DNA from: Sphyrna mokarran
Lineage: Eukaryota
Assembly: GCA_024679065.1 (NCBI GenBank)
Contig: JAGIQG010000012.1
Location: forward strand, 55,180,001-55,244,000
Length of the DNA stretch: 64,000 bases
Direction of reading: 5' to 3'
Position numbers and translations under genes: made by a program. A model generated the notes under the pieces. That model worked only from the letters and a program-made list of their open reading frames with translations. It had not been told where the DNA came from and did not search any database. Shown here piece after piece: positions 51,300 through 54,155 of the stretch. Numbering within the stretch: the stretch's first letter is position 1; the number at the start of each line of letters is the position of its first letter.

Positions 51300-52050
51300 C
51301 CATCTCTAAAGTGAGCATCCAAACATCTCCCTTGACATTCAATGGCATCATCATTGTTGAATCCACCCACCCCCCCACCCACTAGCAACTAGCAACATTT
51401 ATCATTGACCAGAAACTGAACTTAATTGGACATAGGAATACAGAGGCTATAAGTCACAGGTTGGAACTTGGATAGTAACTCACCTCCTGATGCCCCACAA
51501 CCTGTCCAAGGCCCAAGTCAAGAATATTGTAAAATGCTCTCTACTTTGCCTGGATAACTGCACCTCCAACAAGCTTGATATTATCTAGCAGAATAAAGCA
51601 ACTTGCTTGACTGGCACCACATCCACCACTTTCATCATTTACTCTCTTTACCAACAGCGTACAATTGCAACATTTTTACTGTCTTGGACTCAGTATTCAG
51701 CAGTTTCAGACTGTAATTTGTCACCATTTATGATTTTTTTTTGCATATTTTGGTCTTAATCTAATGTTTGAACTGAGGTGAGGAGAAGTTTCTTGGTCAC
51801 TTAAAATACCCTGTAACTCCGCTGTAAACATTACTTAGTTTTCCATGCCATACACTCCTTCCAGGTGAAACACTGATTTGCACATACTTCATCAATAATG
51901 TACAATTGCAGTAGTGTGTACCACTTTATAATACACTGCAGCAACTCATCAAGGTTTCTTTGACAGCATCTTCCAAATTCATGGCTTTGGCCACCTAGAG
52001 GACAAGGTAGTAGATACGTGGGAACACTACCACCTGCAAGTCATACGGCA
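51300..52050 (+). mobile_element. CR1-clade LINE fragment (same family as 23640-24795) carrying a foreign insert at 51676-51890
   Basis: cccttgacattcaatggcatc..attgaccagaaactgaa..caccacctgcaagtc aligns with 24130-24575. Confidence 0.75.
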
Positions 52051-53538
52051 TAATTTGGAATGATATGGGGAACTCTGGGCAATGGGGGCTCATGAGGTGG
52101 CATTAATTGGCATGGATGAGCAGTGGGGAATTTGTGAAGGCTGAGGCAGTGTGAAGGGTTAATGCTAGAGGGCTGTTCTTTATCTCGCTGTCATTATTAG
52201 AACAGGAACAAAGTCCTAGAGCATTGAGGCGGATCTATGAAACAGCCTACCAGAACACCCAGCAACCCTTGTGCCTGTCTCCTAACACTTTCCTAACACT
52301 TGGGTGGGCCTGCCTCCAATTAGCATGCGACCTTCACACTGGAATGAAAACCCCATCCTAGCTTGTTTTGGTTTGATTTGATTTTTGTCACATGTATAAG
52401 CATACAGTGAAAAATATTATTTCTTATGCGCCACATAGACTGTTGGTACTTTTGTTCAAGCTGTGCTGGGAAATTTCCCAATTCCCACTACCTTTTATAG
52501 GATGAAAATTCAGCCTATAAAATCATAGTAGAATCCGTAGTGTCAACATCATTTAAACTGTTACATGCGACTGAGGTAGGCATTTAGTTTTATTGAAGAA
52601 CTGCAGCATTGTTTAACAGATTGGAATCAGGAAAAGGTTTCCTGAGTTTCAAATAGCATATTTTCCCAACTTCAGGATGGCCCTGGTAGCCTCTGGTAGG
52701 TGCAGGGAGGTAAGGAAACCGAATCCAAGTGCCATGTGTGTGACAATCAGGAGTAGCAAATATTCTACAAATATTCTGTCCCTGTTTGTTGTTGTTTCAT
52801 TTGACAAAGAGTAAGAGAAAGTTTTCCATCAAAGTATGGGAATTGCATTAGCCTGAACATTATTGAAAGCTGATGCACTCCTCAGTAGAAAGGTAGGACT
52901 TGGATCCTGGGGACTGAGTTTTTTTAATAGGTCTCTTGGTTGAAATGCTCCTATCCCTAAAACGGCTGTAAGTGTCTGCAGGTCTACAACATGTTTAACA
53001 CAAAAGCAAGAAAGGAGCAGGAGGAGCCATTTGGCCACTCAAGCCCACCCTGTCATTCATTACAATTATGGCTAATCATCCAACTCAATAATCTAATCCC
53101 CATAACGTCTGATGCCATTCGCCCCAAGTGCCATATCCAACTGTCTCTGGAATACATTCAATAACATTAAGGACAAACTGTAACTATTCTGAAAGGAAAT
53201 GGTGCATTGTAATACTACTCATGCGCTGAATCAGACTCCCCACATTCTGTTGCTCGTGAATGTTGAGAATCACAGCTATATGTACCAGTCCAAAATATTT
53301 GGTGTTGATCGGGTATTTATTATTTTTTCAGATTTCAGGCATTATGAAACAGATCTCTCTTTTCTGTGTCCCTTATACAAATTTATAGCAACACAACCCT
53401 AAGTAACACCTCCGGGATACAAAAAAACACCATAAAATAACAGCTAGTTTAATAGCCTGGGGGTATTCTTGGTCACTTAAAATATCCTAAGCCTCAAACA
53501 ATGTAAAACATATCTTAGTTTTCCATACCATATGCTTC

Positions 53539-53875
53539 TTCCAAGTGAAACACTGATTTACATGTGCTTCTCTGAATTTAATCTGCTGTTCTTGCTGCTC
53601 ACAATGCAGTCTGCTGTGCACTGGGGAGGCCAAACGCAGATTGGGTGATTGCTTTGCAGAACATCTCTCTTCAAGTCCACAAGCATGACCTTAAGTTTCT
53701 AGTCACCTGTCATTTTAATTCTCCACTTTGTTCTCAAGCTGACATCTTTGTCCACGACAGACTGCAGTATTCTAATGAAGGACAATGCAAGCCTGAGTCA
53801 CAGTAGTCTAGCTTTCAATTGGGTACTCTTACTGTCTTTTGGACTCAACTCCTGAATTCAGCAATTTCAGACTGT
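53539..53875 (+). mobile_element. Penelope GIY-YIG endonuclease remnant
   Basis: Translates FQVKH*FTCASLNLICCSCCSQCSLLCTGEAKRRLGDCFAEHL..VTCHFNSP; PLE consensus is approximately FTCTSSNLVYCIRC..CGLLYIGETKRRLGDRFAEHL. Confidence 0.85.
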
Positions 53876-53914
53876 AATCTATCATCTTTTTTGCATATTT
53901 TGATTTTAATCTAA

Positions 53915-54155
53915 TATTAGAACTGAGATGAGGAGAAATTTTTTGGGTGGTGAATGCGTGGACTTCATTGTCACAGAATGTACTTGAGACCAAAACGTTG
54001 TCACTTCAAGAAGAAATTAGATATAGGGACTAAGAAGAGTAAGGGGTATGGGAGGACGGTGGTGGTGGAATCAGGATGTTGAATTCGATGATCAAAATGA
54101 ATGGCAGAGCAAGCTCCAAGGACTGAATAGTCTACTTCTGCTTCTAGTTCCAATG
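53915..54155 (+). mobile_element. CR1 3' tail inserted in the Penelope remnant
   Basis: agaactgagatgaggagaaatt..gaatggcagagcaagctccaaggactgaatagtctacttctgcttcta. Confidence 0.8.

What the first reader, a model, noticed from the sequence alone, without database searches (positions are those of the whole stretch)
51650..53946. Circularly permuted copy of local genomic DNA inserted ~1.6 kb upstream of its donor
Seen: the insert 51676-51890 has two parts. B (51676-51796) matches 53829-53946 and A (51790-51890) matches 53466-53570. Donor order is A...B but the insert is B-A, joined at a shared tt(c/t)ttgg microhomology. The insert interrupts a LINE and is flanked by a degenerate ~20-bp direct repeat (accaacagcgtacaattgca / atcaataatgtacaattgca). 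It spans locus-specific junctions (flank/Penelope and Penelope/CR1), so it copies this locus, not a TE family. Inference: reintegration of part of a ~480-nt circle (eccDNA, or reverse-transcribed circular RNA from a hammerhead-bearing Penelope locus), or a double template switch during repair.
Basis: partly seen in the sequence, partly recalled or inferred. Interest (0 to 1): 0.7.

Follow-up and report, generated by a model that had tools for sequence, protein, structure and literature searches.

The report
Old repair scar, locally shuffled copy
Two short pieces of nearby DNA were copied, in swapped order, into an old jumping-gene remnant about 2 kb from their source, most likely while a DNA break was being patched; such local repair copies are already known in vertebrates and look common in this genome, so a DNA or RNA circle is probably not needed.

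Summary
A 217-nt insert (51670-51886) splits an old LINE, is flanked by a 24-nt target duplication, and copies two pieces of a donor 1.6-2.0 kb downstream in B-A order. The joint is single-copy, is present in a sequencing run and crosses locus-specific junctions. The circle reading is not needed. Only 230 of 481 donor bases were copied, the joints carry 3-6 nt microhomologies, no back-splice signals fit, and the hammerhead-like core lies about 410 nt outside. It matches the chimeric repair-mediated duplications of Pace et al. 2009 (PMC2671141). Likely both break ends primed back-to-back on the donor and annealed, which gives B-A order and skips the middle. In 1.66 Mb of this genome I found 64 other short local copies. 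Of 8 two-piece cases none was permuted and 4 mixed orientations, which a simple circle cannot give; none of this was enriched near Penelope copies. Earlier notes of this scan reported local inverted copies elsewhere in this genome. An eccDNA template stays possible (about 17%). Ordinary, probably neutral.

The parts
51264..51669 (+). Left arm of the interrupted old LINE (acceptor site)
   Evidence: Profile from 28 genome copies, E 5e-55; 24% from the family majority. Family name not tested.
51646..51669 (+). T1, first copy of the 24-nt target duplication; holds CAATTG (51662-51667), which also stands just before B in the donor
   Evidence: 19 of 24 identical to T2, all 5 differences transitions; T1 and T2 share 7 non-majority bases in 24 columns
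51670..51677 (+). Ambiguous left-junction bases with a run of 5 T: diverged start of B, short filler, or a decayed tail
   Evidence: Poor match to donor 53822-53829; the mismatches are transitions (sequence shown)
51676..51796 (+). Insert piece B', copy of donor B, crossing the Penelope-like/CR1-like junction
51790..51796 (+). B-A joint; microhomology TTCTT (5 nt), up to 7 nt
   Evidence: single-copy joint
51790..51890 (+). Insert piece A', copy of donor A, crossing the unique-flank/Penelope-like junction
51887..51910 (+). T2, second copy of the target duplication; its first 4 nt (CTTC) are also the last 4 nt of A
51887..52041 (+). Right arm of the interrupted LINE
   Evidence: Profile hit E 1e-49
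53466..53570 (+). Donor A: single-copy flank (to 53528) plus the start of the truncated Penelope-like fragment
53571..53821 (+). Donor middle M (251 nt), not copied into the insert
   Evidence: continuous with the Penelope-like profile
53529..53911 (+). 5'-truncated fragment of a high-copy Penelope-like retroelement (label rests on recalled GIY-YIG-like reading frames and the 3' hammerhead-like core; Pfam gave no supporting hit)
   Evidence: 1106 candidates, 40 scored; profile E 1e-96; Pfam negative
53822..53946 (+). Donor B, preceded by CAATTG at 53816-53821
53915..54170 (+). CR1-like 3' fragment (label recalled) inserted into the Penelope-like copy before the duplication; lacks 8 nt of the family right after 53944
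   Evidence: 4105 candidates; profile E 1e-75
54142..54446 (+). Rest of the Penelope-like copy, with a decayed hammerhead-like core starting at 54359, outside the copied span
   Evidence: no Rfam hammerhead hit at E<=5 in 49-57 kb

Best explanation
This is a real, old two-piece local copy inside a LINE, likely made by DNA break repair that used the chromosome 2 kb away as template (a chimeric repair-mediated duplication). Shown: structure T-B-A-T, intact donor A-M-B, short shared words at the joints, one age for all duplicated parts. Inferred steps: (1) a staggered break left the 24-nt T on both ends; (2) the left 3' end primed on the donor at CAATTG and copied B rightwards; (3) the right 3' end primed at CTTC and copied A leftwards; (4) the two new strands annealed at TTCTT and were filled in. 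Because the two priming sites face away from each other, the product reads B-A and the 251 nt between them is never copied. One nascent strand switching template three times gives the same product and is counted here as the same class. The insert is probably neutral.
For: Acceptor interrupts a repeat, donor 1.6-2.0 kb away, about 220 nt, with microhomology and target duplication. This is the profile of the 824 human repair-mediated duplications, 5 of which have two local donors 289-3,432 bp apart (PMC2671141). One of these is a 194-bp acceptor with donors about 2 kb downstream and 289 bp apart (piece order not given). Exact overlaps of 6, 5 and 3-4 nt: chance 4e-6 for three random joints, or 0.002 if the left joint is discounted (post hoc). 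One age for B, A and T (p=0.30). Insert and donor share 10 non-majority bases in 113 Penelope-like columns; other copies average 0.6 (A part) and 2.0 (B part). In 1.664 Mb: 64 other local copies; 38 of 72 pairs direct and 34 inverted; 67 of 72 within 3 kb against 266 of 854 for repeat-family pairs. Of 8 other two-piece cases 4 mix orientations and 0 are permuted.
Against: Sequence alone cannot tell a chromosomal template from a circular copy of the same DNA. The junction letters are blurred by about 15% divergence. The left joint is ambiguous: 8 poorly matching bases with a 5-T run, which formally reaches the polyA/T cutoff of Pace et al. The 24-nt duplication is longer than their 4-21 nt range, and long target duplications are rare among the other events (1 clear case among 74 pairs tested singly; one more 38-nt case). 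No outgroup empty site was seen. The sample holds no second permuted case, so permuted order is not shown to recur by this route here. Some of the mixed two-piece cases could be two successive events. In humans, permuted local inserts are read as eccDNA-derived.
Confidence: 0.7

Rival explanations
1. A ~480-bp extrachromosomal DNA circle, closed at TTCTT(GG) from a sister or re-replicated copy of the donor, served as template or was partly reintegrated at a nearby break.
For: B-A order and a 5-7 nt repeat at the would-be closure. Human cyclically permuted inserts are 82 of 327 source-resolved insertions, nearly all in the source's orientation (79 of 80), mostly within 10 Mb, and enriched for terminal microhomology.
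Against: Only 230 of 481 nt copied; this fails the 95% source-coverage rule of that study. No remnant of M lies next to either T copy. It needs the same three joints plus an extra molecule. 0 of 8 other two-piece events are permuted and 4 mix orientations.
Confidence: 0.17
2. Older tandem duplication(s) eroded by deletions, or a donor that was briefly tandem so that its B-A junction was copied once and the tandem later collapsed.
For: The event is old (15% pairwise). Takahashi and Innan name tandem duplication plus deletion as a source of false permutations. Microhomology also marks deletions (general knowledge).
Against: T-B-A-T needs a triplication and three deletions that each end at the present joints, while one copy stays intact (inference from the layout). 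No other duplicated remnant appears in 49-57 kb. B, A and T have one age.
Confidence: 0.08
3. Reverse transcription of RNA from this locus (a hammerhead-made or back-spliced circle, or two RNA fragments joined by a template jump), inserted by a retroelement enzyme that made the 24-nt duplication.
For: The insert is flanked by a target duplication, a 5-T run lies 3 nt inside the left end, and the donor sits in a retroelement with a hammerhead-like core.
Against: The core is about 410 nt outside the copied span and decayed; 0 of 8 joint placements fit back-splicing. Ribozyme circles come from tandem repeats cut at two ribozymes (PMC7229834 passages). Local copies are not nearer to Penelope-like hits than chance: 6 of 72 within 500 nt against 9.9%, p=0.51; for the core 4 of 72 against 5.4%, p=0.09. 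In the human set 0 of 39 proximal copies had a polyA/T tail, against 17 of 29 distant ones.
Confidence: 0.05

Closest known systems
Chimeric repair-mediated duplication (RD), Pace, Sen, Batzer and Feschotte 2009, PMC2671141 (parts 1-5 of 8 read; Table S1 part 1 and a search)
   Same: Short copy inside a transposon, single donor region under 5 kb away, microhomology with target duplication, two donors a few hundred bases apart joined at a short shared word; explained there by both 3' ends invading separately.
   Different: Target duplication 24 nt against their 4-21 nt. The parts read do not give the order or orientation of the two pieces, so permuted order is not documented there. Their species list has no cartilaginous fish.
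AB-to-BA 'eccDNA-mediated' human insertions, bioRxiv 10.64898/2026.09.03.749254 (abstract, sections 7 and 29, passages; supplements closed)
   Same: Swapped order, same orientation as the source, near the source, short shared words at the ends.
   Different: They require at least 95% source coverage; here it is 48%. Their cases are polymorphic and near-identical; this one is old.
eccDNA-mediated segmental duplication, Takahashi and Innan 2020, PMC7188851 (parts 1-3 of 4 read)
   Same: Two parallel diagonals in swapped order.
   Different: Their 3 cases are about 20-130 kb and copy the whole circle; this one is 0.2 kb and gapped.
Templated sequence insertion polymorphisms, PMC5110952, and cancer templated insertions, PMC7025897 (search listings and abstract starts only)
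   Same: Templated inserts at breaks.
   Different: The former are described as copied from distant regions; the latter are somatic. Not compared in detail.
Non-LTR retrozymes, PMC7229834 (passages)
   Same: A hammerhead-like motif is nearby and the size is similar.
   Different: Not a tandem multi-copy unit; the ribozyme is not within the unit.

Membership tests
Repair-mediated duplication (PMC2671141) | Insert of at least 50 bp interrupts a transposon whose arms resume within 30 bp in the family model | tested here: met
   LINE profile ends at position 532 and resumes at about 508; 217-nt insert
Repair-mediated duplication (PMC2671141) | Template found at one other place only | tested here: met
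   the search skips very common words; part of the template is itself repeat-derived, but shared non-majority bases tie it to this donor
Repair-mediated duplication (PMC2671141) | Donor 50 bp to 5 kb away, copy no longer than about 620 bp | tested here: met
   Gaps 1,576 and 2,033 nt
Repair-mediated duplication (PMC2671141) | Microhomology, filler, deletion or target duplication at the breakpoints | tested here: met
   6, 5 and 3-4 nt overlaps; 24-nt duplication
Repair-mediated duplication (PMC2671141) | No polyA/T tail of 5 nt or more | tested here: inconclusive
   A 5-T run lies 3 nt inside the left end; it also aligns to donor bases by transitions
Repair-mediated duplication (PMC2671141) | Empty site in an outgroup | not testable with these tools
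   No relatives are held for this genome; 1 run listed; the empty site is inferred from the LINE family only
eccDNA-mediated (AB-to-BA) insertion | Cyclic shift of block order, same strand | tested here: met
eccDNA-mediated (AB-to-BA) insertion | At least 95% of the source interval copied | tested here: not met
   230 of 481 nt
eccDNA-mediated (AB-to-BA) insertion | A circle with this joint exists or existed | not testable with these tools
   Old fixed event; no circle data
Retrozyme / ribozyme circRNA retrocopy | Unit bounded by hammerhead cut sites, in tandem copies | tested here: not met
   Core about 410 nt outside; joint single-copy
Back-spliced circRNA retrocopy | GT after the 3' end and AG before the 5' end on one strand | tested here: not met
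   0 of 8 placements in the present-day donor; the donor has aged since

The most novel reading that the evidence does not exclude
Back-to-back priming of both break ends makes gapped 'circular permutations' with no circle at all, and this locus is a clean fossil of it; some AB-to-BA insertions now credited to eccDNA would then be the zero-gap end of the same repair process, which in this genome leaves about 40 short local copies per Mb.
Probability: 0.3. Interest if true: 0.5.

Novelty: new member of a known kind. Interest (0 to 1): 0.23.

Why it matters
As a single locus it matters little: a probably neutral scar among dead retroelements. It is useful as a worked case that swapped order near the source is not by itself evidence of a circle, and it gives a cheap test, the size of the donor gap between the end of A and the start of B. 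The sample also suggests that short local repair copies are dense in this genome (65 events in 1.664 Mb by a loose filter), which would make it a good place to collect two-piece events.

Tried and rejected
Multi-copy B-A repeat: not found. Tandem or retrozyme-like structure of the donor family: no direct self-repeat in 29 family loci plus the window copy. Rfam on 49-57 kb: 2 chance microRNA hits at E 4-5, no hammerhead. Pfam on 12 frames of the Penelope-like family: no relevant hit, 2 weak DUF matches, so that label is recalled and not confirmed. The protein atlas gave no result. Public runs: 1 DNA holder, no RNA holder listed, which is no evidence on expression. No empty-site allele was seen in that run; its listed joints look like other repeat copies, and contigs drop rare variants. 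Gene context: ORFs were listed but not followed, so whether the site is intronic is unknown. A spliceosomal lariat starting at the GT at 53463 was considered and dropped: no branch-point motif at the B end (by eye), no known transcript. The per-piece target-duplication scan cannot see this two-piece insert's own duplication. Look-alike stretches in other genomes of the scan: none. A search for 'repair-mediated duplication' or 'shark' returned only unrelated papers.

Full report
Observation. The two matches are as stated: 51676-51796 to 53829-53946 and 51790-51890 to 53466-53570, both direct, swapped in order. The genome is 2.77 Gb; earlier notes of this scan call it a shark, which I did not test. 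The insert finds 4 matches in the genome: itself, the two donor pieces and a 43-nt repeat piece. The 32-nt joint occurs once with up to 3 mismatches. A contig of run X1 covers 51200-51961 without a difference, though X1 may be the assembly's source.

Which copy is the donor. The downstream region is a single-copy flank, then a truncated high-copy element at 53529-53911 that continues at 54142-54446, split by a second repeat at 53915-54170. I call these Penelope-like and CR1-like from recalled motifs; Pfam did not confirm the first. Both elements run on past the copied pieces. The upstream copy instead splits a LINE whose profile ends at 51670 and resumes at about 51887 with 24 nt present twice. 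So downstream is donor, upstream is acceptor, and the layout is T-B-A-T. Piece A crosses the flank/Penelope-like border and piece B the Penelope-like/CR1-like border. Insert and donor share 3 of 41 and 7 of 72 non-majority bases; other copies average 0.6 and 2.0, with maxima of 2 and 5. The CR1 part shares 0 of 29. T1 and T2 share 7 of 24 and are 79% alike; one of 26 other copies also shared 7 with T1 but was only 54% alike.

Age. B differs at 13 of 114 columns, A at 18 of 101 and T at 5 of 24, consistent with one event (p=0.30). That is about 7.5% per copy, against 14.5% for the CR1-like copy, 20% for the Penelope-like copy and 23-24% for the LINE from their family majorities (families built from top hits, so rough). 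The copy is younger than all three elements.

Joints. Left: CAATTG near the end of T1 also stands immediately before donor B; the next 8 bases match poorly and include 5 T, so they may be diverged B, filler or a decayed tail. Right: CTTC ends A and begins T2 (3 of 4 in T1). Three random joints reach overlaps of 6, 5 and 3 with probability 4e-6, or 0.002 without the left one; both figures are post hoc.

Circle readings. Of 481 donor bases from A start to B end, 230 were copied and 251 skipped, with no remnant next to T. The hammerhead-like core begins at 54359, about 410 nt outside, and Rfam does not score it. No placement of the joint (0 of 8) has back-splice dinucleotides on either strand. 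The family shows no tandem unit.

Base rate in this genome. I scanned 167 tiles (1,664,000 nt: the window, 400 kb beside it and six 200-kb blocks I chose arbitrarily). Of 1,690 local matches, 956 were non-overlapping, within 10 kb and at least 45 bits; 102 scored at least 1.25 times their best distant match; I dropped 28 as satellite arrays or near-tandem pairs, leaving 74 pairs in 65 events including this one. The other 72 pairs are 38 direct and 34 inverted, median length 134 nt, median gap 831 nt; 67 lie within 3 kb, against 266 of 854 control pairs. Where the acceptor could be told from a split repeat, sites showed small deletions or small duplications. One inverted copy has a 28-nt target duplication. 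Of 8 other two-piece groups, 4 mix orientations, 3 are collinear with a skip, 1 is nested with two ages, and 0 are permuted; a more sensitive look for abutting pieces found no permuted case either. Some mixed groups may be successive events. There is no enrichment near Penelope-like hits (6 of 72 within 500 nt against 9.9%, p=0.51) and at most a weak trend for the core (4 of 72 against 5.4%, p=0.09). Low-copy repeats can leak through the filter.

Mechanism. Inferred: a staggered break kept T on both ends; the left end primed at CAATTG and copied B rightwards; the right end primed at CTTC and copied A leftwards; the strands annealed at TTCTT. Priming sites that face each other give a collinear copy; sites that face apart give B-A and skip what lies between, as seen. 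A single strand switching three times gives the same letters. A circular copy of the donor used as template also gives the same letters, so it cannot be excluded, but it adds a molecule and explains neither the missing middle nor the mixed-orientation neighbours.

Comparison. Pace et al. 2009 (PMC2671141; parts 1-5 of 8, Table S1 in part) describe 824 human repair-mediated duplications within 5 kb, mean 162 bp, with microhomology, filler, deletion or 4-21 nt target duplication, and 20 two-donor chimeras, 5 with both donors local. One has a 194-bp acceptor and donors 289 bp apart about 2 kb downstream; its order is not given. The locus meets four of their six features, with the tail test inconclusive and the outgroup test not possible. 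Permuted copies are described by Takahashi and Innan (PMC7188851) and in a 2026 preprint where 82 of 327 human insertions are AB-to-BA; this insert fails that preprint's 95% coverage rule. In its main text 'template switch' and 'strand annealing' do not occur. One search for permutation together with strand annealing or template switching returned 1 unrelated paper, and 'repair-mediated duplication' occurs in 9 papers, none on cartilaginous fish by title; this library is incomplete, so absence from print is not shown.

Verdict. Real, correctly described, and best filed as a new member of a known kind: a chimeric repair-mediated duplication (0.70), against an eccDNA template (0.17), eroded tandem duplication (0.08) and an RNA route (0.05). 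Interest 0.23.

Noticed in passing
1.664 Mb sample of G000 (L096-L255 and the window): About 39 short local copies per Mb by a loose filter (65 events); at least 5 others of 50 nt or more clearly split a repeat. Pace et al. report 0.08-0.65 per Mb of transposon DNA with a stricter pipeline, so the density here may be much higher; the methods are not comparable as run.
   Followed up: partly
window 3083-3149 and 4192-4258: 67-nt direct local copy, 92.5% alike, no distant match in the sample.
   Followed up: no
window 42230-42279 and 42590-42639: 50-nt inverted local copy, 86% alike.
   Followed up: no
G000:C1326:50049591-50049790: Young (95.5%) 200-nt inverted copy from 339 nt away, inside a repeat, with a 28-nt target duplication (27 of 28): a one-piece sister of this finding.
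   Followed up: partly
G000:C224:55175839-55176053 (4 kb before the window): 93-nt inverted local copy plus 48 nt of unknown origin between 38-nt direct repeats.
   Followed up: no
G000:C1:50010754-50011391: Two-piece insert with donors on both sides in opposite orientations, both 89% alike, 52-nt filler.
   Followed up: partly
window 52986-53149 (- strand), 52350-52440, 22485-22555: A second CR1-like 3' fragment, a short high-copy repeat, and another short Penelope-like 3' end with the hammerhead-like core.
   Followed up: no
G000:C224:55025005-55025255 and 55026138-55026388: 251-nt direct local copy, 100% identical; may be very recent or polymorphic.
   Followed up: no
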